A DNA stretch of 64,000 bases from Acidimicrobiia bacterium. Its GTDB lineage: Bacteria > Actinomycetota > Acidimicrobiia > Spongiisociales > ZC4RG35. Where the stretch lies: the NCBI GenBank assembly GCA_046484325.1, contig JAWOJB010000063.1:874-64873 (forward strand), in the 5' to 3' direction. Within the stretch, counting starts at the first letter, position 1. The number at the start of each line of letters is the position of its first letter. Below are positions 14,395-59,040 of this stretch, piece by piece. A program made the position numbers and the translations under genes. The notes below the pieces were generated by a model. It made no database searches. It was not told the origin of the DNA and worked only from the letters and a program-made list of their open reading frames with translations.

Positions 14395-14458
14395 GAGAGG
14401 CGAGGGTAGCGAGAGGCGAGAGGCAAGAGGCGAGAGGCAAGTGGCGAGAAGCAGGAGG
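14395..14458. repeat. purine-rich imperfect microsatellite, GAGAGGC(R)A-like units
   Basis: The sequence is gagaggcgagggtagcgagaggcgagaggcaagaggcgagaggcaagtggcgagaagcaggagg. It abuts the amidase start codon directly. Confidence 0.8.
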
Positions 14459-14470
14459 TCGTGGACAGGC

Positions 14471-14757
14471 GGTCCCCCTACCCCGCGGCTGTCGCCGCGG
14501 GGGCCCCTTCCCCCACTCCGTGGGGGACAAAGCGCACATTGCATCGCCCACGGCCCACCGCTGCCTTCCTGGTTTGTCCCCTTCCCCCACTCCGTGGGGG
14601 ACAAAGCGCACACCGCATCGCCCACGGCCCACCGCTGCCTTCCTGGTTTGTCCCCTTCCCCCACTCCGTGGGGGACAAAGCGCACAGCGCATTGCCCACG
14701 GCCCACCGCTGCCGTCCTGGTTTGTCCCGTTCCCCCACTTCGTGGGGGACAGAGCGA
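14471..14757 (+). repeat. structured repeat family A: head + hairpin H1 + 3.4 tandem 74-bp units
   Basis: Head GGTCCCCCTACC at 14471-14482. H1 is CCCCGCGG-ctgtcg-CCGCGGGG at 14481-14502. Units lie at 14504-14577, 14578-14651 and 14652-14725 (2-4 mismatches between them), with a partial unit to about 14757. Each unit begins with CCCCCAC-tcc-GTGGGGG. Confidence 0.9.
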
Positions 14758-14956
14758 CGTACGACTGGAACGTGAGACGTGCGCCCACCTTTCATCCCGC
14801 CGACCATCTGCGGCCACCGAGCGTCCACCTCGGTCCGATAGACATGGGGGTGCGGCGTCGAACCTCCGGCGTCGATCCCTCCTCCCGGGGAACGAGCGGG
14901 GCGGCACCTCTCGGTGACCGCCCCGCATCCGTTTCTGCCGGTAGCCTCGCCCCCGC

Positions 14957-26458: not shown

Positions 26459-27730
26459 TCACACGTGGCCGGGGTAGCCCTCCGGGTAGGGGGGATGGGC
26501 GGTGGCCAGCTCGCGCACCCGCGACTCGACACCGGCCAGCGCCGCCCGGTCGTGACGAGCCTGCAGCGCCCGGGCGACCAGATGCGCCACCTCCGCCGCC
26601 TCGACCGGCTCGAACCCCTGGGTGGTCATCGCCGGGGTCCCCATCCGCAGGCCGCTGGCCCGATAGGGAGGCCGGGGGTCGAAGGGGATGGTGTTGAAGT
26701 TGAGCGTGATCCCCAGTTGGTCGAGCAGGCGAGCTGCGTCACGACCGGTCAGCTCCTCGTCGACCGAGCGGAGATCGACCAGGAACAGATGGTTGTCGGT
26801 GCCCCCCGACACCACCCGAACCCCCTCGTCACCCATCCGGCCGGCCATCGCCCGGGCGTTGGCGACGATCCGCTCGGTGTAGTCGCGGAACGCCGGCTGG
26901 GCGGCCTCGTGGAAGCACACCGCCTTGGCGGCGATCTGACTCATGATCGGGCCACCCTGGGCGTTGGGGAAGACCGCCTTGTCGACTGCGGCGGCGAACT
27001 CCTCCTTGCACAGCACCATGCCGCCGCGCGGCCCCCGCAGCGCCTTGTGGGTGGTGGCTGTGACGATGTCGGCGTGAGGCACCGGATTGGGGTAGGAGCC
27101 GCCCGCCACCAGTCCGATGAAGTGGGCGGCGTCGACCATGAACACGGCCTCGACCTCGTCGGCGATCGACCGGAACGCCTCGTAGTCGAGCTCGCGTGAG
27201 TAGGCCGAGTACCCGGCGAGCAGGATCTTGGGCCGGTGTTCGAGCGCCAGCTTGCGGACCTCGTCCATGTCGATGCGCTCGGTGGCGGGGTCGACGCCGT
27301 AGGCGACGAACCGGTAGTACATGCCGGAGAAGTTCACCGGCGACCCGTGGGTGAGGTGGCCCCCCTGATCGAGCCGCATCCCGAGCACGGTGTCCCCCGG
27401 CTGGAGGAGCGAGAAGTAGACGCCCATGTTCGCTTGCGCCCCCGAGTGGGCCTGGACGTTGGCGTGCTCGGCGCCGAACAGGGCCTTGGCCCGGTCTCGG
27501 GCGAGGTCCTCCATCTCGTCGACGACCGCGCAGCCCTCGTAGTACCGCCGGCCCGGGTAGCCCTCGGCGTACTTGTTGGTGAACACCGAGCCGCTGGCGG
27601 CCATCACCGCCGGCGAGGCGAAGTTCTCCGAGGCGATCAGATGGATGTGACGGTTCTGGCGTGCAAGGTCACGACGAATGAGATCCGCGATGGCGGGATC
27701 GACCGCCTCGACCGGGTCCATGGAGATCAT
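26459..27730 (-). CDS. glyA: serine hydroxymethyltransferase
   Basis: 423 aa with [26 protein letters not shown] and [12 protein letters not shown] (PLP lysine). Confidence 0.97.
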
Positions 27731-27771
27731 GAGGCAGACAGTACCGAGTACTCAGTACTCACTGCTCGGTC

Positions 27772-28980
27772 TCAGTGGATCGCGTCCCCGCTGTCGCAGT
27801 CGAAGAAATGGACCTTCGCCGTGTCGACATACAGCGTGGCCTGGTCACCGCCCTTGGGGGCGTGCTCGGGATGGACCCGGGCCGTGAACTTCGAGACCTC
27901 GCCGAGCGACTCGACGTCGGTGCCCTGATCCTCCATGAGCTCACGGAGCTCTGGCGTAATCACCGGGGGCGACTGGGTTTCGAAGTGGACGTATGCCTCG
28001 GAGCCGAGCTGCTCGGTGATTTCGACCTTGATGTCGTAGGTACGGTCGGTCGTGTCGAGCTCGGAGGGGACGGCCTGGAGGATCTCGAACGCCTCCGGGC
28101 GGATCCCGACGACGACCCGCTTGCCCTTGTAGTTGGCGAGTCCGGGCATGTGGGCGACGCGCTGGCGGTCGATCTTCACCCGGCCGGCCGGGAACCGGGC
28201 GAAGACGTCCTCACCCTCTCCCTCGATCGTGCCGTAGATGAAGTTCATGGACGGCGACCCGATGAAGCCGGCCACGAACAGGTTGGCGGGCTCGTCGTAC
28301 AACACCCTGGGGGTGTCCACCTGCTGGAGGTTGGAGACCTCGTCCGAGATCCTGCGGAGAACGGCCACCCGGTCGCCCATCGTCATCGCCTCGACCTGGT
28401 CGTGGGTCACGTAGAGCGTCGTAGTCCCCAGCCGGGCGTGCAGGAGCCCGAGCTCGGACCGCATCTGGACGCGGAGCTTGGCGTCGAGATTCGAGAGCGG
28501 CTCGTCCATGAGGAAGGCTGAAGGCTCGCGCACGATCGCCCGGCCCATCGCCACGCGCTGGCGCTGACCGCCCGACAGGGCCTTGGGCTTGCGCTCGAGG
28601 TACTCGGTGATCTCGAGGACCTTGGCCGCCTCCTCCACCCGGCGACGGATCTCGTCCTTCGGCATCTTGCGGAGCTTCAGGCCGAACGCCATGTTGTCGA
28701 AGACCGACATGTGCGGGTACAGCGCGTAGTTCTGGAACACCATGGCGATGTCCCGGTCCTTTGGGGTGACGTCGTTGACCACCCGGTCGCCGATCTTGAG
28801 GTCGCCTTCGGTGACCTCCTCGAGGCCCGCCACCATGCGCAGCAGCGTCGACTTCCCACACCCGGACGGGCCCACGAGCACGACGAACTCGCCGTCATCG
28901 ACATGGATGTTCACGTCATAGATCGCCCGCGTCCCGCCTGGGTACACCTTGCCTACCGAATCGAACGTGATCGACGACAC
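27772..28980 (-). CDS. carbohydrate-importer ABC ATPase, MalK/UgpC/MsiK type
   Basis: 402 aa with [29 protein letters not shown] and a C-terminal MalK-like regulatory domain. No permease or binding-protein gene is adjacent. Confidence 0.9.
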
Positions 28981-29024
28981 GTCACATCCTCCAGGTTCCG
29001 CCGTCCGACTGGTCCGAACATAGC

Positions 29025-29780
29025 ATGAGCCCCTACCCTGACTCCACCGAGATCGGATCCGGCATGGAGAACAACGTGGACAGGGTCGCCGTCATCACCG
29101 GGGGTACCGGGGGTTTGGGTACGGCCCTCGCCGCCCGCCTGCACGAGTCGGGGCACCGGCTCGCGGCCACCTACCTGCTGCCCGACGAGGCCCGCAGGTT
29201 CGAGCAGGAGCTCGACCTCGATGAGGACCGCTTCATGCTGCGGAGAGTCGATGCGACGAACCCGGAAGCCGTCGGCGAGTTCATGGACGAGGTCGCCGGG
29301 TCGTTCGGGGAGATCCACGCGGTGTGCTCGCTCGTCGGGGGTTGGGCAGGGGGCCGGGACGTCGAGGACACCGACGACGTGCGCCTCGAGCGAATGCTCG
29401 ACCTCAACCTGCGCTCTGCCTTCTACACGGTGCGGGCGGCGATCCCCCACCTCAAGCGCGCCGGCTGGGGCCGTATCGTGCTGGTCGGCAGCCGCGCCGT
29501 CGTCGAGAACCCCCCGGGTCAGGCCGCCTTCAACATCGCCAAGGCCGGCGTGGTGGCCCTCGGGAAGACCCTCGCCCAGGAGCTCGACGGGACTGGTGTG
29601 ACGGCGAGCGTCCTCATGCCGTCGGTCATCGATACGCCTGCCACCCGGCAGACCCTTCCCTTCGCCGACTATGTGGGATGGCCCACACCCGATGAGATCG
29701 CCGGTGTGGCCGCATTCCTCGTCTCCGAGCAGGCCGGCGTCATGAACGGAGCCACCATCCCCGTGTACGGAAGGGTGTGA
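29025..29780 (+). CDS. SDR-family oxidoreductase
   Basis: Contains [12 protein letters not shown] and FNIAKAGV (a YxxxK-like position). ATG 29064 ([14 protein letters not shown]) is a plausible alternative start. Confidence 0.8.
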
Positions 29781-29819
29781 CCGTCGGCCTCGCTCCCGGG
29801 CCTCGCTAGCCTCGGACAG

Positions 29820-30287
29820 ATGACCGACGAAGCGCTCCGCCCCGATGCCATCGAGCCCGTCGACCAGGCCGACCTCTCGACCGACGACGAGCCGGCCATC
29901 CGCCAGCCCACCAAGCTGATCAGGATCGCCTCGATGACCAGGGCCATGCTCGACGAGGTCCGTCAGGCGCCACTCGACGAGGCGGGCCGCATCCGGCTCA
30001 TGGAGGTCCACCAGCGGAGCCTCCAGGAGCTGCGCGGGGTGCTGTCGGCCGAGCTCCTCCAGGAATTCGACGACATCTTCCAGCCGATCCGGGGCGATGG
30101 GACGCCGAGCGAGTCCGAGCTCCGCATCGCCCAGGCCCAGCTCATCGGCTGGCTCGAGGGGCTCTTCCACGGCATCCAGGCCAGCCTGTTCAGCCAGCAG
30201 ATGGCGGCACAGGCGCAACTCGCAGAGATGCAGCGACGCCAGCAACTCGGACCGCGGAGCGACGAGAGCTCGGGCCTCTACCTCTGA
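29820..30287 (+). CDS. bpa: bacterial proteasome activator Bpa/PafE
   Basis: 155 aa. ELRIAQAQLIGWLEGLFHGIQASLFSQQMAAQAQL and the C-terminal GLYL closely resemble mycobacterial Bpa (which ends in GQYL). Confidence 0.85.
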   Translation: MTDEALRPDAIEPVDQADLSTDDEPAIRQPTKLIRIASMTRAMLDEVRQAPLDEAGRIRLMEVHQRSLQELRGVLSAELLQEFDDIFQPIRGDGTPSESELRIAQAQLIGWLEGLFHGIQASLFSQQMAAQAQLAEMQRRQQLGPRSDESSGLYL

Positions 30288-34216: not shown

Positions 34217-34280
34217 CGGAAGGCGAGTGTACGAGCGGCCGGCTCCCGAATTGGCCGGACCACCTTGTAGCGTGCCAGAG

Positions 34281-35081
34281 GTGGAGCGATTCACCCATGT
34301 GGGCCGGCTCATCGATCCCCGAAACCCCTCCAACCTCTTCGCGCTGGCCGTGTCCGGGGCAGCCGGCGCAGCCGGCCTGGTGCTCGGGGGGAGCCTCGGG
34401 GCGGGGATCTCCGCGGGGCTGGCAACCTTCCTCGCATGGGCCCTCGGCCGGGAGCTCGACCCGGACCGCCCCTGGACCGCCGGGGCGGCGGCCGTTGCCA
34501 CCGGCGCCGTCTCTCTCGCCATCCCCGCCGAGGCGGGGACGCTCGCCGTGCTGTTGGTGGCTGCCCGGGTGACGCTGCGCCCGACCGGACTGCCGCCCAC
34601 CGTCCTCGACCTGGTGGGGCTCACCGTGGTAGCCGGCTTCTTTGCCCGCAGCCCTGCCGGATGGTCGGCGGGCATGGCGCTGGCCTTCGCCCTGGCACGT
34701 GACACCACCCTGCCCCCACCGGCCGAACGCACCCAACTCGGGTTCGCCGCTGCGGCCGCCGTGCTCGTGACGGCGGTGGCTACCCTCACCGACGCCCTGG
34801 GCGGACCCTGGCAGGCACCGGATGCCTACGAGGCGACGATCGCTGCACTCGGCCTGATCGCCGGCATCACCCTGCCCCGGGAGACCCCCCGGAGCCGGTG
34901 CGATGCCACCCCCGCCATCATGTCGGACGAGCGTCTGCAGTGGGCGCGATGGACGGTGCTGGGGGCATTGGTGCTGGCCGGCGTGGTCGGCGGAGGTCCG
35001 GCGCTGGGCGCCACCGCCGGGGGATGGCTGGCGCTGACCTCGACCGGGCTGGGAGCAAGGGTGCGGCGCTCGGAGACGTGA
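34281..35081 (+). CDS. hypothetical polytopic membrane protein
   Basis: Ala/Gly/Leu-rich with about 7 hydrophobic segments and no recognisable motif. GTG 34281 is the first start clear of the divergent aminotransferase. Confidence 0.5.
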   Translation: MERFTHVGRLIDPRNPSNLFALAVSGAAGAAGLVLGGSLGAGISAGLATFLAWALGRELDPDRPWTAGAAAVATGAVSLAIPAEAGTLAVLLVAARVTLRPTGLPPTVLDLVGLTVVAGFFARSPAGWSAGMALAFALARDTTLPPPAERTQLGFAAAAAVLVTAVATLTDALGGPWQAPDAYEATIAALGLIAGITLPRETPRSRCDATPAIMSDERLQWARWTVLGALVLAGVVGGGPALGATAGGWLALTSTGLGARVRRSET

Positions 35082-35104
35082 CGACCCCGGCGCCCGCAGG
35101 CCTC

Positions 35105-35276
35105 GGTCCCCCTACCTCCCGGCTCGCCGGCGCTCGCGGGCGGGACCTTCCCCCAGCCTCCGGCTGGGGAACAAACCAGAGAGTGCGCGGCGCCGTGCGC
35201 AATGCCCTGTGCGCTTTGTCCCCCACGAGGTGGGGGAAAGGGCCCCCACCGCCGGAGGCGGTGGGGTAGGGGGACC
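35105..35276. mobile_element. repeat family A composite: 172-bp inverted element with 12-bp terminal inverted repeats (MITE/BIME-like)
   Basis: GGTCCCCCTACC at 35105-35116 and its exact complement at 35265-35276. The right arm, reverse-complemented, aligns with 14471-14553. GCCTC occurs on both flanks (35100-35104 and 35277-35281). Confidence 0.75.
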
Positions 35277-35289
35277 GCCTCTCCCCACC

Positions 35290-36129
35290 TCACCTCGGTG
35301 CGCGCACCATGCGGACGTGAGGACCGATCTCGGGCTCCTCCCACACCTCCGAGACGGCCACGAACCCGTGACGCTCGTAGAAGCCGGCGGCCGGTACCCG
35401 CACCGAGGCCCACACCCGGCCTCCTCCATGGGCGTCCACGTGGTCCTGGCACGCCGCCAGCAGCCACGCCCCCAAGCCCGACCCGCGCACCGACTCGTCC
35501 ACCGCCATCGCCCGCAGGCGCCAGGCCGGAGCCTCCGGTGCGTCAGGCGAGGGCTCGGGAAAGACCCCGGCCGAGCCGACCAGCTCCCCGTCCTTCACGA
35601 CGCCGAACCAGCCGGCGTCGGGATGGTCCTCGCCGGGTACGACGAGTTCATCCGTTGTCTGGTGGGGCCGCAGGATCTGGCGGCGCAGCTCACGCGTCTC
35701 CGCCGCCTCCACCGGCCGTATCACCTCGATCGAGCCGGTGAGCTTGGCGACCCGTGAGAGCATCACCGACGCCGAGCAGTACTTCCCCTCCGCCATCTCG
35801 ACCGCCCGGCGGATCCGGGCGTCGTCACACGCCCCCCGAACCCGGTAGGTCACGTGGATTTCGGTCCAGACCCGGGGTGGCGTCGGGGCGCGATCCCCCG
35901 CTACTCGTACCTCGAGCGCGTCGACCGGTTGCCGCATCCGGGGCAGCAGATCGGCCAGGGTCACACCCGAGCAGGTCGCCAGGCTCACGAGCATGAGCTC
36001 CATCGGTCCCGGGCCAGCGGTCGGGGCGGGCTCGTCGGGCTTGCCCTCGACGGGGAACGTGTGGCCGGATGCGGTCGACACCTCGAAGCGGCGGCCGGAT
36101 CGGTGGGTGGCGGTGGTGACGAGATCCAT
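35290..36129 (-). CDS. OsmC/Ohr-family domain fused to GNAT acetyltransferase
   Basis: 279 aa. The N-terminal ~135 aa (PGPMELMLVSLATCSG..AEGKYCSAS) is OsmC-like. The C-terminal ~140 aa (RLRAMAVDESVRGSGLGAWLL..FYERHGF) is GNAT. Confidence 0.8.
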   Translation of the reverse strand: MDLVTTATHRSGRRFEVSTASGHTFPVEGKPDEPAPTAGPGPMELMLVSLATCSGVTLADLLPRMRQPVDALEVRVAGDRAPTPPRVWTEIHVTYRVRGACDDARIRRAVEMAEGKYCSASVMLSRVAKLTGSIEVIRPVEAAETRELRRQILRPHQTTDELVVPGEDHPDAGWFGVVKDGELVGSAGVFPEPSPDAPEAPAWRLRAMAVDESVRGSGLGAWLLAACQDHVDAHGGGRVWASVRVPAAGFYERHGFVAVSEVWEEPEIGPHVRMVRAPR

Positions 36130-49343: not shown

Positions 49344-49416
49344 GCCCACGTAGCTCAGGGGATAGAGCAACTGCCTCCTAAGCAGTAGGTCACAGGTTCG
49401 AATCCTGTCGTGGGCG
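49344..49416 (+). tRNA. tRNA-Arg (anticodon CCT)
   Basis: Cloverleaf read by hand. Acceptor GCCCACG/CGTGGGC, D arm GCTC-AGGGGATA-GAGC, anticodon stem ACTGC/GCAGT with loop CTCCTAA, T arm ACAGG-TTCGAAT-CCTGT. CCA is not encoded. Confidence 0.9.
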
Positions 49417-58966: not shown

Positions 58967-59040
58967 AGCTGGCGGTGGGACTCGAACCCACGACCTGCTG
59001 ATTACAAATCAGCTGCTCTGGCCATCTGAGCTACGCCAGC
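58967..59040 (-). tRNA. tRNA-Thr (anticodon TGT)
   Basis: The reverse complement is GCTGGCG-TA-GCTCAGATGGCCAGAGC-A-GCTGA-TTTGTAA-TCAGC-AGGTC-GTGGG-TTCGAGT-CCCAC-CGCCAGC-T. CCA is not encoded. Confidence 0.9.

What the first reader, a model, noticed from the sequence alone, without database searches (positions are those of the whole stretch)
35105..35276. 172-bp inverted composite of the same repeat with perfect 12-bp terminal inverted repeats and a possible 5-bp target-site duplication
GGTCCCCCTACC (35105-35116) and GGTAGGGGGACC (35265-35276) are exact reverse complements. The right arm, reverse-complemented, aligns base-for-base with 14471-14553 except inside the hairpin stems and a short stretch after GCGCACA. 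The left arm is a more diverged copy in the opposite orientation. GCCTC occurs immediately outside both termini (35100-35104 and 35277-35281), as expected for a target-site duplication of a non-autonomous transposable element. The inverted repeat can also be extended by one base, so the duplication reading is not certain. The element sits between two convergent stop codons (35081 and 35290), so it may also act as a bidirectional terminator.
Basis: partly seen in the sequence, partly recalled or inferred. Interest (0 to 1): 0.7.

Follow-up and report, generated by a model that had tools for sequence, protein, structure and literature searches.

The report
REP-like palindromic repeat pair, not MITE
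The 172-bp inverted structure is real. It is one copy of a previously undescribed family of hairpin-forming intergenic repeats (like the REP/BIME elements of E. coli) found in a group of uncultured Acidimicrobiia, and the apparent target-site duplication that suggested a classical miniature transposon does not hold up.

Summary
All the strings and coordinates check out. The element is not two diverged copies of one repeat. It is a tag-outward heterodimer of two unit subtypes, Y-like at 35105-35176 (+) and Z-like at 35215-35284 (-), around a conserved spacer. A unit is CCCCCTACC, hairpin 1, GNCCCCTT, hairpin 2, ACAAAG.

A covariance model finds 228 units in 0.8 Mb from nine Acidimicrobiia MAGs. 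Both hairpins show strong compensatory variation. About 4% of clusters lie in genes, against about 79% predicted coding sequence.

In most of these genomes the "terminal" tags face inward (69 dimers against 12), so they are not general termini. None of 13 other tag-outward composites has a flanking direct repeat. The right GCCTC lies inside the repeat: GGTAGGGGGACCGCCTCTCC recurs 19/20 at the 14.4-kb copy.

Orthologous loci:
- The sister lineage (81% aa) carries a related, rapidly rearranging element at the same site.
- More distant relatives have 65-bp or 1-bp gaps with no element.
- Other MAG pairs show gain, loss, inversion and tandem amplification, without duplications.

IS110-family insertion sequences sit exactly at the tag, as they do in classical REPs. 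No RAYT transposase and no T-tailed terminator was found.

Verdict: a new REP/BIME-like family. MITE with TSD is not supported, and the mobilising enzyme is unknown.

The parts
35105..35116 (+). Tag of the Y-like arm: GGTCCCCCTACC. The family-wide conserved core is CCCCCTACC, and its last CC forms the foot of hairpin 1.
   Evidence: CM columns 7-10 pair with 52-55 as C-G in 120 of 121 sequences.
35117..35145 (+). Hairpin 1 of the Y-like arm (TCCCGGC...GGGCGGGA), the subtype 'TCCC...GGGA'.
   Evidence: Folding. The same subtype appears in the DATFFO, DATHVR and CAVUUV MAG units.
35146..35149 (+). Linker CCTT of the Y-like arm.
35150..35169 (+). Hairpin 2 of the Y-like arm: CCCCCAGCC-TCC-GGCTGGGG (8 bp, C-TNC-G triloop).
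   Evidence: The whole Y-like arm 35109-35175 scores 29.3 bits, E = 1.5e-5, against model R1.
35170..35219 (.). Spacer between the two arms, AACAAAC ... GCGC-rich core ... TTTGT. It is homologous to the 74-bp array unit at 14.5 kb and to the sister single unit.
   Evidence: Alignments.
35220..35236 (-). Hairpin 2 of the Z-like arm (CCCCCAC-CTC-GTGGGGG on the minus strand).
35237..35244 (-). Linker (GGCCCTTT on the minus strand).
35244..35266 (-). Hairpin 1 of the Z-like arm (CCCCACCGCC-TCC-GGCGGTGGGG on the minus strand, 9-10 bp). It shows compensatory changes relative to the 14483-14504 copy.
   Evidence: The arm 35215-35272 is the best hit to model R1 (81.9 bits).
35265..35276 (-). Tag of the Z-like arm (GGTAGGGGGACC on the + strand).
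35277..35284 (-). Extension of the Z-like repeat beyond the tag (GCCTCTCC on the + strand). It contains the supposed right-hand TSD copy.
   Evidence: 19 of 20 identity with rc(14451-14482). The sister locus reads GGTAGGGGGGCC-GCCTCTCC.
35100..35104 (.). Left GCCTC. A direct match to the first 5 nt of the Z-arm extension, most likely chance.
   Evidence: 0 of 13 other composites have such a repeat; chance is 0.5-0.7% per site.
34272..35081 (+). Upstream convergent gene (269 aa, no Pfam family).
35290..36129 (-). Downstream convergent gene (OsmC + GNAT fusion).
14471..14531 (+). Second copy in the window: a complete Z-like unit (tag, hairpin 1, hairpin 2, ACAAA).
   Evidence: 77.6 bits..
14504..14756 (+). 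3.4 tandem copies of a 74-bp [hairpin 2 + spacer] module. The sister genome has one copy, so the array was amplified in place.
   Evidence: 95% matches..
14395..14458 (.). Heptamer array (GAGAGGC)n, which is GCCTCTC on the other strand. It is an expansion of the 7-mer that follows the Z tag.

Best explanation
The element is one copy of a REP/BIME-like family of extragenic palindromic repeats, found in a clade of uncultured Acidimicrobiia. I found no published description of it.

**Anatomy.** The basic unit is 50-75 nt: a single-stranded tag CCCCCTACC (GGTAGGGGG on the other strand), hairpin 1, the linker G-N-CCCCTT, hairpin 2, then ACAAAG. The window copy is a tag-outward ('head-head') heterodimer. 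It joins a Y-like unit (35105-35176, + strand) to a Z-like unit with its 8-nt extension (35215-35284, - strand) around a conserved GCGC-rich spacer.

**How it works.**
- Shown: hairpin-forming ability is under selection. Copies are excluded from genes. They are gained, lost, inverted and tandemly amplified at orthologous sites without target-site duplication.
- Inferred: dispersal is by a trans-acting enzyme that recognises the tag plus a hairpin on one DNA strand, in the manner of RAYT / IS200-IS605 HUH transposases, rather than by a TIR-binding DDE transposase. Local growth is by replication slippage or unequal recombination between the palindromic modules.
- Inferred and untested: at this site, between convergent genes, the transcribed hairpins probably act passively as 3'-end structures for both mRNAs.
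For: **A real family**
- The genome scan gives 98 stretches, nearly all from Acidimicrobiia MAGs.
- Model R1 finds 228 units in 0.8 Mb. The window's right arm is the top hit.

**Selection on structure**
- 207 cells have changes on both sides of a pair, against 75 +/- 7 in shuffles (0 of 500 shuffles reach it).
- Covariation score is 0.234, against 0.083 in shuffles and at most 0.067 in slid controls.
- There are 124 distinct unit sequences, with invariant linkers.

**Location**
- 4 of 109 clusters lie in predicted genes, against 79% coding sequence.
- Occupancy of convergent gaps is about twice that of other gaps (chi-square p = 0.011).

**REP-like organisation**
- 69 tag-inward dimers, 12 tag-outward, 20 tandem, about 34 singles.
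- Z+Y heterodimers like the window's occur in L025, L037, L050 and L070.
- This matches the HH/TT/HT dimers, heterodimers and clusters with repeated flank segments described for GTAG REPs (PMC3733652).

**Dynamics without TSD**
- The sister lineage has a related element at the same site, with 1 or 3 hairpin-2 modules in different samples. More distant relatives have 65-bp or 1-bp gaps.
- L006 has a 40-nt gap where L070 has a 562-nt cluster. At another gap they carry opposite-orientation units of different subtypes.
- L055 has one extra unit relative to L068, which is 98.8% identical, with no duplication.
- A unit is inverted in situ between L017 and L085.

**Strand-asymmetric loops**
- 98 of 124 hairpin-2 loops and 46 of 124 hairpin-1 loops are C-TNC-G on the tag strand, which is C-GNA-G on the GTAG strand. 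None is the reverse.
- d(GNA) triloops closed by C-G are known, from my own knowledge (Hirao 1994; Yoshizawa 1997), as exceptionally stable DNA mini-hairpins.
- A:C mismatches (wobble on the GTAG strand) outnumber G:T mismatches 49 to 18.

**IS targeting**
- Three IS110-family elements sit exactly at the tag, as reported for REPs (PMC1525189, PMC11208160, titles and abstracts only).
Against: - No RAYT or Y1 transposase was found. tblastn with E. coli RayT and a motif scan over about 0.9 Mb gave nothing. No recurrent family appears among 147 neighbouring genes. Both searches are insensitive or partial, and whole genomes could not be scanned.
- On the strand that reads GTAG, the tag lies 3' of hairpins 1 and 2. 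Canonical REPs have GTAG 5' of the palindrome (PMC2817692). Only some lineages (DATFFO, DATHVR) have a further small hairpin 3' of the tag.
- Units show no orientation bias relative to flanking genes or to the local majority gene strand. A lagging-strand single-stranded-DNA mechanism therefore gets no support from orientation.
- Both window loci are also occupied in the sister lineage, so no recent transposition is seen in this lineage itself. What is seen there is in-place amplification.
Confidence: 0.62

Rival explanations
1. Classical MITE: a deletion derivative of an insertion sequence. A DDE transposase would bind its 12-13-bp terminal inverted repeats, and insertion would duplicate 5 bp of target (GCCTC).
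For: - A perfect 12-bp inverted repeat (13 bp with the one-base extension) at the ends, with GCCTC on both sides.
- The size, 172 bp, is typical of MITEs.
- The family shows presence/absence at orthologous sites.
Against: - The tags face inward in 69 dimers and outward in 12. About 34 units are single.
- None of 13 other tag-outward composites has a flanking repeat of 3 nt or more.
- The right GCCTC is inside the repeat.
- The sister element at the same site has GGGGC on one side and GGAGC on the other, not a perfect repeat.
- A unit gain between 98.8%-identical loci left no duplication.
- No IS with these ends occurs in 0.9 Mb. The transposase genes that are present (IS110-family and a DDE family, PF13701) are inserted into the repeats and have their own ends.
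Confidence: 0.07
2. Primarily an RNA-level element: a bidirectional, T-tract-independent transcription terminator or mRNA 3'-end stabiliser. On this view it is kept by selection at gene ends, and its repetition reflects convergent or duplicated regulatory hairpins.
For: - It lies between convergent stops.
- Very stable folds on both strands (-119 and -121 kcal/mol).
- The hairpins covary.
- Clusters are about twice as frequent in convergent gaps.
- REPs are known to have such secondary roles (PMC3733652).
Against: - No T/U tract on either strand and no Rfam family.
- Units also lie in divergent, promoter-side gaps (8 clusters), including the window's own 14.4-kb array between divergent starts.
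- Orientation relative to genes is random: 5 to 5 for singletons, 35 to 26 for all units. Yet loop sequences are strictly strand-asymmetric.
- The conserved single-stranded tag and linkers, and the lineage-specific 35-40-nt extensions, are not explained by terminator function.
Confidence: 0.15
3. The repeats depend on IS110-family (bridge/seek-RNA-guided) recombinases. Either they are multi-copy landing pads that co-evolve with these IS elements, or they are moved in trans by them.
For: - Three IS110-family genes sit between a minus and a plus unit. Two of them share only 28% identity, and the three come from two MAGs.
- One IS end abuts the C-run/CTAC of the tag in each case.
- L026 is the IS-free ortholog of L076.
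Against: - The IS ends (TTACCTTGTTG... and ...CTTGACA..ATAGG) are unrelated to the unit sequence. The units therefore look like targets, not IS termini.
- Targeting of REPs by IS110-family elements is already known and does not imply mobilisation (PMC1525189).
- No IS110 gene is seen near the two window copies.
Confidence: 0.08

Closest known systems
REP / BIME elements of Enterobacteria and the GTAG-tagged REP super-family (Nunvar 2010, PMC2817692; Di Nocera 2013, PMC3733652)
   Same: - High-copy, GC-rich extragenic palindromes with a short conserved tag containing GTAG/CTAC next to the stem.
- Singles, HH, TT and HT dimers, and clusters that repeat pieces of flank.
- Heterodimers of two unit types, like Y and Z in E. 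coli.
- Conserved spacers in HH dimers.
- Targets of IS110-family insertion.
- No target-site duplication.
   Different: - Each unit has two hairpins joined by conserved linkers (G-N-CCCCTT, ACAAAG), not one.
- The tag is 9 nt (CCCCCTACC) and lies on the opposite side of the hairpin relative to canonical 5'-GTAG REPs.
- The host is Acidimicrobiia (Actinomycetota). The REP/RAYT papers read here do not mention Actinobacteria (term searches of PMC3733652, PMC5581495 and PMC2817692).
- No RAYT gene was found.
REPINs of Pseudomonas fluorescens (Bertels & Rainey 2011, PMC3116915; title and abstract only)
   Same: Two inverted REP-like units around a short spacer, forming a unit of about 100-170 bp. 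Vertical persistence with slow turnover: the same site is occupied in lineages that are 81-91% identical at the protein level.
   Different: - The two arms are different subtypes, 59 identities over 92 aligned columns, so a single long hairpin is imperfect.
- The tag-inward arrangement dominates in most genomes of this family.
- No RAYT association has been demonstrated.
Bacterial MITEs such as Correia/NEMIS, ERIC, RUP (general class; PMC3184786 abstract, and my own knowledge)
   Same: Small, non-coding and intergenic, with inverted ends. The whole element can fold into a long stem-loop.
   Different: MITEs have true terminal inverted repeats matching a parent IS, and fixed-length target duplications. 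Here the inverted 'ends' are an internal family tag, no duplication is seen in 13 other composites, and no parent IS is seen.
IS200/IS605-type ends and their palindrome-only derivatives (my own knowledge)
   Same: A sub-terminal hairpin with a conserved single-stranded motif at its foot. No TIR or TSD requirement. Strand asymmetry.
   Different: No TnpA (Y1) gene was found in the sampled DNA. There is no left-end / right-end asymmetry with a fixed target tetranucleotide, and no orientation bias.

Membership tests
REP/BIME (GTAG-tagged REPs) | Many copies of a short GC-rich imperfect palindrome, confined to extragenic DNA | tested here: met
   228 units in 0.8 Mb. 4 of 109 clusters lie in predicted genes, against 79% coding sequence.
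REP/BIME (GTAG-tagged REPs) | Conserved GTAG tetranucleotide at the 5' end of the palindrome | tested here: inconclusive
   The tag GGTAGGGGG contains GTAG and touches the foot of hairpin 1. On that strand it is 3' of hairpins 1 and 2. Canonical REPs have it 5'. In the DATFFO and DATHVR MAGs a third small hairpin does follow the tag.
REP/BIME (GTAG-tagged REPs) | Organisation as HH/TT/HT dimers, heterodimers and mosaic clusters | tested here: met
   69 TT, 12 HH and 20 HT dimers. Z+Y heterodimers. Clusters that repeat flank segments (L050, L070).
REP/BIME (GTAG-tagged REPs) | A cognate RAYT (Y1 HUH transposase) gene in the genome, usually flanked by the REPs | not testable with these tools
   None was found in 0.9 Mb by tblastn or motif scan, nor as a recurrent family among 147 neighbouring genes. 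Single-sequence searches are weak: E. coli RayT found no chain in the PDB other than its own structure at E <= 0.001. Whole MAGs could not be scanned.
REPIN | Two inverted REPs with near-identical arms that form one long hairpin and replicate as a unit | tested here: not met
   The arms are inverted, but they are different subtypes: 59 identities over 92 aligned columns. The Y arm scores 29 bits against 82 bits for the Z arm.
MITE | Terminal inverted repeats at the true ends of the element | tested here: not met
   The perfect 12-13-bp inverted repeat is present. However, the repeat continues 8 nt beyond it on the Z side, and the same motif is internal in most family members.
MITE | Fixed-length target-site duplication flanking copies | tested here: not met
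   0 of 13 other composites have one. No duplication at the L055/L068 gain. The sister element's flanks are not identical.
MITE | A parent IS with matching ends | tested here: not met
   The only transposase genes in the sampled loci are IS110-family and a DDE family (PF13701). They have unrelated ends and are inserted into the repeats. This is limited to the sampled DNA.
Intrinsic (rho-independent) terminator | GC-rich hairpin followed by a T/U tract | tested here: not met
   0 terminator-like sites on either strand in 34800-35600.
Any curated RNA family (Rfam 15) | Match at or above the gathering score | tested here: not met
   Only two tRNAs in the window at gathering threshold. The best local hit has E = 0.034, far below its gathering score.

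The most novel reading that the evidence does not exclude
The family is a REPIN-like intragenomic replicator in Actinomycetota that does not use a canonical RAYT. Its two-hairpin units, with strictly strand-asymmetric GNA triloops and a C5TACC tag, would be recognised as single-stranded DNA by an as yet unidentified enzyme. Alternatively, they co-evolve with RNA-guided IS110 recombinases that use the tag as a multi-copy landing pad. Either way this would be a new repeat-enzyme partnership.
Probability: 0.12. Interest if true: 0.7.

Novelty: new variant of a known kind. Interest (0 to 1): 0.4.

Why it matters
REP/BIME/REPIN elements are best known from Proteobacteria. A structurally distinct family in uncultured Acidimicrobiia widens the known host range of this kind of repeat. 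The family has two covarying hairpins, a 9-nt tag and strand-asymmetric GNA loops.

It offers three practical things:
- A natural system for asking what mobilises such repeats when no RAYT is evident.
- An explanation for contig breaks and hypervariable intergenic regions in these MAGs.
- Evidence that RNA-guided IS110 elements target the tag, which could serve as a natural target set for studying bridge-recombinase specificity.

For annotation, it warns against calling MITEs from a single copy with inverted ends and a short flanking match.

Tried and rejected
- **Rfam** at gathering and permissive thresholds: nothing.
- **Metagenome scan** with tag + hairpin-2 pattern: only one partial copy, L002. 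The source sample is evidently not in that collection.
- **Plasmid collection**, distant blastn: no match.
- **RAYT hunt.** tblastn with E. coli RayT gave a best E of 0.11, on the wrong strand of a called gene. An HUH...Y..NP motif scan gave nothing. A PDB search with RayT found only its own structure at significant E, so single-sequence searches are insensitive. A Pfam scan of 147 neighbouring genes showed no recurrent transposase family.
- **Genes between widely spaced unit pairs** (L094, L099, L025) are ordinary metabolic genes.
- **Orientation tests** against flanking genes and the local majority gene strand: no bias.
- **First crude gene caller** (stop-to-stop ORFs ranked by GC3) dropped real genes and was replaced.
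- **Exact insertion boundaries** from empty sites L106-L108: the flanks are too diverged to align.
- **Long single hairpin (REPIN) reading:** rejected because the arms are different subtypes.
- **CRISPR-like or protein-coding readings of the 74-bp array:** rejected. The array lies in a divergent intergenic gap and is made of the same hairpin-2 + spacer module.

Full report
**Observation.**
GGTCCCCCTACC is at 35105-35116 and its exact reverse complement at 35265-35276. GCCTC is at 35100-35104 and 35277-35281. The convergent stop codons are at 35079-35081 and 35290-35292. The inverted repeat extends to 13 bp. The 12-mer occurs three times in the window against 0.84 expected. A tag + gap + TGGGGNACAAA pattern occurs three times against none in 100 shuffles. 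The 196-nt region folds better than its shuffles on both strands (z = -4.0 and -2.8). blastn finds only two loci of this repeat in the 64 kb: 35105-35276 and 14471-14760. The second is a tag and hairpin 1 followed by 3.4 tandem 74-bp modules.

**Anatomy.**
The minus strand of the element is collinear with the 14471 locus through tag, hairpin 1, linker, hairpin 2, ACAAAGCGCAC and the spacer, up to CTGGTTTGTYCCC. The left arm is not a decayed copy. It has a different hairpin-1 subtype (TCCC...GGGA followed by CCTT) and a different hairpin 2 (CCCCCAGCC-TCC-GGCTGGGG). The same subtype pairs with the 'CC...GG-GGCCCCTT' subtype in inverted composites in other genomes (L025, L037, L050, L070). The element is therefore a heterodimer of a Y-like and a Z-like unit around a conserved spacer.

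**Source and relatives.**
The OsmC-GNAT protein next to the element is encoded on a 139-kb JGI metagenome contig. NCBI names it as from an Acidimicrobiia MAG. The window is 99.3% identical to that contig over 15 kb, with one variable patch. A scan of one genome per species with CCCCCACNNNGTGGGGGACAAA returned 98 stretches, almost all from nine Acidimicrobiia MAGs. I built a covariance model from 24 diverse units. It finds 228 units in 0.8 Mb of these loci. The window's right arm is the best hit (81.9 bits), the 14475 unit scores 77.6 bits and the left arm 29.3 bits.

**Structure is selected.**
On 121 distinct aligned units, 90.3% of cells pair, against 79.1% in shuffles. There are 207 cells with changes on both sides, against 75 +/- 7 (0 of 500 shuffles reach it). 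The covariation score is 0.234, against 0.083 in shuffles and at most 0.067 when partners are slid. One caution: the alignment was fitted to the model, which leans towards the structure. An independent MAFFT/RNAalifold run also shows GC/AU/CG/UA exchanges in hairpin 1. The tag, the G-N-CCCCTT linker and ACAAA are nearly invariant across 124 distinct units.

The loops are strictly strand-asymmetric. 98 of 124 hairpin-2 loops and 46 of 124 hairpin-1 loops are C-TNC-G on the tag strand, and none is C-GNA-G on that strand. The three loop bases were left free in the search pattern. On the GTAG strand these loops read C-GNA-G, which I recall from the literature as an exceptionally stable DNA mini-hairpin motif. 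That link is my own knowledge, not a tool result. Stem mismatches are A:C 49 times against G:T 18 times, so wobble is tolerated mainly on the GTAG strand. These counts are not phylogenetically independent.

**Where the copies sit.**
I used a GC3-based gene caller that reproduces most of the JGI gene calls near the element. With it, 4 of 109 clusters fall mostly in predicted genes, against 79% coding sequence. 19 lie in convergent gaps, 8 in divergent gaps and 44 in co-directional gaps. Convergent gaps are occupied about twice as often (p = 0.011). Orientation is unbiased:
- singletons 5 to 5 relative to the flanking gene strand;
- regex-defined units in co-directional gaps, 35 to 26;
- against the local majority gene strand, 29 to 41 for canonical units (p = 0.19) and 69 to 70 for all units.

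The neighbours are ordinary, unrelated genes.

**The 'termini' are not termini.**
Across the MAGs, tag-inward dimers (69) far outnumber tag-outward ones like the window's (12). There are also 20 tandem dimers and about 34 singles. In four lineages (CAWGTX, JBHJOH, DATFFO, DATHVR) conserved sequence continues 35-40 nt beyond the tag, in two classes per genome. Only in CAVYYV, CAVUUV and the window lineage are the outer flanks unrelated.

In the window lineage the Z-type repeat still continues 8 nt beyond the tag. GGTAGGGGGACCGCCTCTCC (35265-35284) matches the independent 14.4-kb copy at 19 of 20 positions. The sister genome reads GGTAGGGGGGCC-GCCTCTCC. The right-hand GCCTC is therefore part of the repeat.

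**Target-site duplication test.**
For 13 other tag-outward composites I let the boundary slide over the possible extension of the inverted repeat. None has a direct repeat of 3 nt or more abutting both ends. The window copy is the only one that does. In this window an exact 5-mer flank match at a spacing of 172 bp occurs at 0.5-0.7% of positions.

**Orthologous loci.**
Homologues of the OsmC-GNAT protein were traced to their contigs. Synteny with the convergent 266-287-aa gene is kept.
- The sister lineage (81% aa identity, four samples) carries a related element at the same site and in the same orientation. It has CGGTCCCCCTACC on one side and GGGAGGTAGGGGGG on the other. Different samples have 3 or 1 hairpin-2 modules and 8-10 copies of GTGAGAC in place of most of the Y arm. 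Its flanks are GGGGC and GGAGC, not a perfect repeat.
- Relatives at 78% and 75% identity have a 65-bp gap with an unrelated hairpin.
- A relative at 73% has a 1-bp gap.

The 14.4-kb locus lies between divergently transcribed genes (a PIG-L deacetylase and a cyclase-like gene). In the sister lineage it carries a single Z unit where the window has the unit plus 3.4 modules and an expanded GCCTCTC heptamer. A 77% relative has no unit.

Among the MAGs:
- L006 has a 40-nt gap where its 82%-identical ortholog L070 has a 562-nt cluster.
- At a second gap the same two loci carry units of different subtype in opposite orientation.
- L055 has one extra unit plus 50 nt relative to the 98.8%-identical L068, with no duplication.
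- Two contigs of one MAG, L017 and L085, have identical flanks and a 95-bp unit in opposite orientations.

So copies are gained, lost, flipped and amplified, but never with a visible duplication.

**Enzymes.**
No RAYT or Y1 transposase was detected. Three IS110-family genes (PF01548 + PF02371) each sit between a minus and a plus unit. Two of them are only 28% identical. One IS end abuts the C-run/CTAC of the tag in each case. L026 is the IS-free ortholog of L076. Targeting of REPs by IS elements, IS110-family ones among them, is published (PMC1525189, PMC11208160, titles and abstracts). This is a further REP-like property. The IS ends are unrelated to the units, so the units look like targets rather than IS termini.

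**Comparison with known elements.**
The organisation matches the GTAG-tagged REP super-family as described by Di Nocera et al. That description includes HH, TT and HT dimers, heterodimers, conserved spacers in HH dimers, and clusters repeating flank segments (PMC3733652). The differences are these:
- two hairpins per unit, joined by conserved linkers;
- a 9-nt tag that lies on the other side of the hairpin relative to canonical 5'-GTAG REPs (PMC2817692);
- the host phylum, which the REP/RAYT papers I searched do not mention;
- no RAYT shown.

It fails the MITE tests for true terminal repeats, duplication and a parent IS. It fails the intrinsic-terminator test, and it matches no Rfam family.

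**Mechanism.**
- Shown: selection for hairpin formation, exclusion from genes, turnover without duplication, local tandem amplification, and IS110 targeting of the tag.
- Inferred: dispersal by a trans-acting enzyme that reads the tag plus a hairpin on one DNA strand, in the RAYT / IS200-IS605 manner. This is suggested by the strand-asymmetric GNA loops and the conserved single-stranded motif at the foot of the hairpin. The absence of a detected enzyme and of any orientation bias weakens it.
- Possible but untested: a passive role as 3'-end hairpins for the two convergent mRNAs at this site.

**Verdict.**
The MITE/TSD interpretation is not supported. The element is a copy of a REP/BIME-like family that I could not find described. 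This is moderately interesting as a new variant of a known kind. The open question of what mobilises it is the part worth following.

Noticed in passing
window 14395-14458 (and 35277-35283): A (GAGAGGC)n heptamer array abuts the tag end of the 14.4-kb copy. On the other strand it reads GCCTCTC, the same 7-mer that follows the Z-type tag at 35277 and in the sister genome. The sister has a single copy, so the microsatellite grew out of the end of the repeat.
   Followed up: partly
L102-L105 (sister OsmC-GNAT locus), about 130-200 nt after the gene's stop: 8-10 tandem GTGAGAC heptamers lie inside the orthologous element. Heptamer number and the number of hairpin-2 modules (3 or 1) differ between metagenome samples that encode the identical flanking protein.
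   Followed up: partly
L076 2561-4142; L086 1850-3115; L051 5156-6560: IS110-family transposase genes (PF01548 + PF02371) are inserted exactly at the C-run/CTAC of the CCCCCTACC tag, between a minus and a plus unit. Two of the proteins are only 28% identical. L026 is the IS-free ortholog of L076. These may be natural targets of bridge/seek-RNA-guided recombinases.
   Followed up: partly
L020 1307-2278 and 3257-4294: Two copies (84% aa identity) of a DDE transposase gene (PF13701/PF01609), each lying between repeat units.
   Followed up: no
L017 (reverse strand, first ~150 nt) vs L085 2758-2900: Two contigs of the same MAG (SMAG_U8638) have identical flanks (31/31 and 232/236) and a 95-bp repeat unit in opposite orientations. 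This is either an in-situ inversion or a re-insertion polymorphism.
   Followed up: partly
L006 5466-5642 and 6980-7020 vs L070 5382-5583 and 6920-7482: Orthologous loci at 82% nt identity. One gap holds a Z unit (+) in L006 but two Y units (-) in L070. The other gap is 40 nt in L006 and a 562-nt cluster of three composites plus repeated 37-nt flank segments in L070.
   Followed up: partly
L055 3309-3466 vs L068 164-216: Loci 98.8% identical over 4.6 kb differ by one extra unit plus 50 nt of unrelated sequence, with no duplication at the junctions.
   Followed up: partly
window 27358-29840: The window is 99.3-99.8% identical to JGI contig Ga0645781_01097 on either side of this region. It is only 77.6% identical over 28229-29712, and has 871 nt (27358-28229) with no counterpart in that contig. 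This looks like a strain-level replacement, so the window is a variant of that contig.
   Followed up: no
window ~14870-14940: A hairpin GCGGGGCGGCAC...GTGACCGCCCCGC next to CCCTCCTCCCGGGGAA lies upstream of the cyclase-like gene. It is conserved in the sister lineage and in a 77% relative (L114). It may be a 5' leader element.
   Followed up: no
L078 4668-4689; L087 (two copies, 272 nt apart): A Thiotrichales MAG carries the same 22-nt hairpin + ACAAA inside a different, longer repeated sequence (...ACAAACCCGCCGGGAGCGGGTTTGAAC...). This is either chance or a convergent motif in an unrelated repeat family.
   Followed up: no
window 49344-49416 (+) and 58967-59040 (-): Two tRNA genes, the only Rfam matches at gathering score in the window.
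   Followed up: no
many DATFFO / DATHVR / JBHJOH loci: About a third of the clusters lie within 300 nt of a contig or locus end (34 of 109). This is consistent with these repeats breaking short-read MAG assemblies.
   Followed up: no
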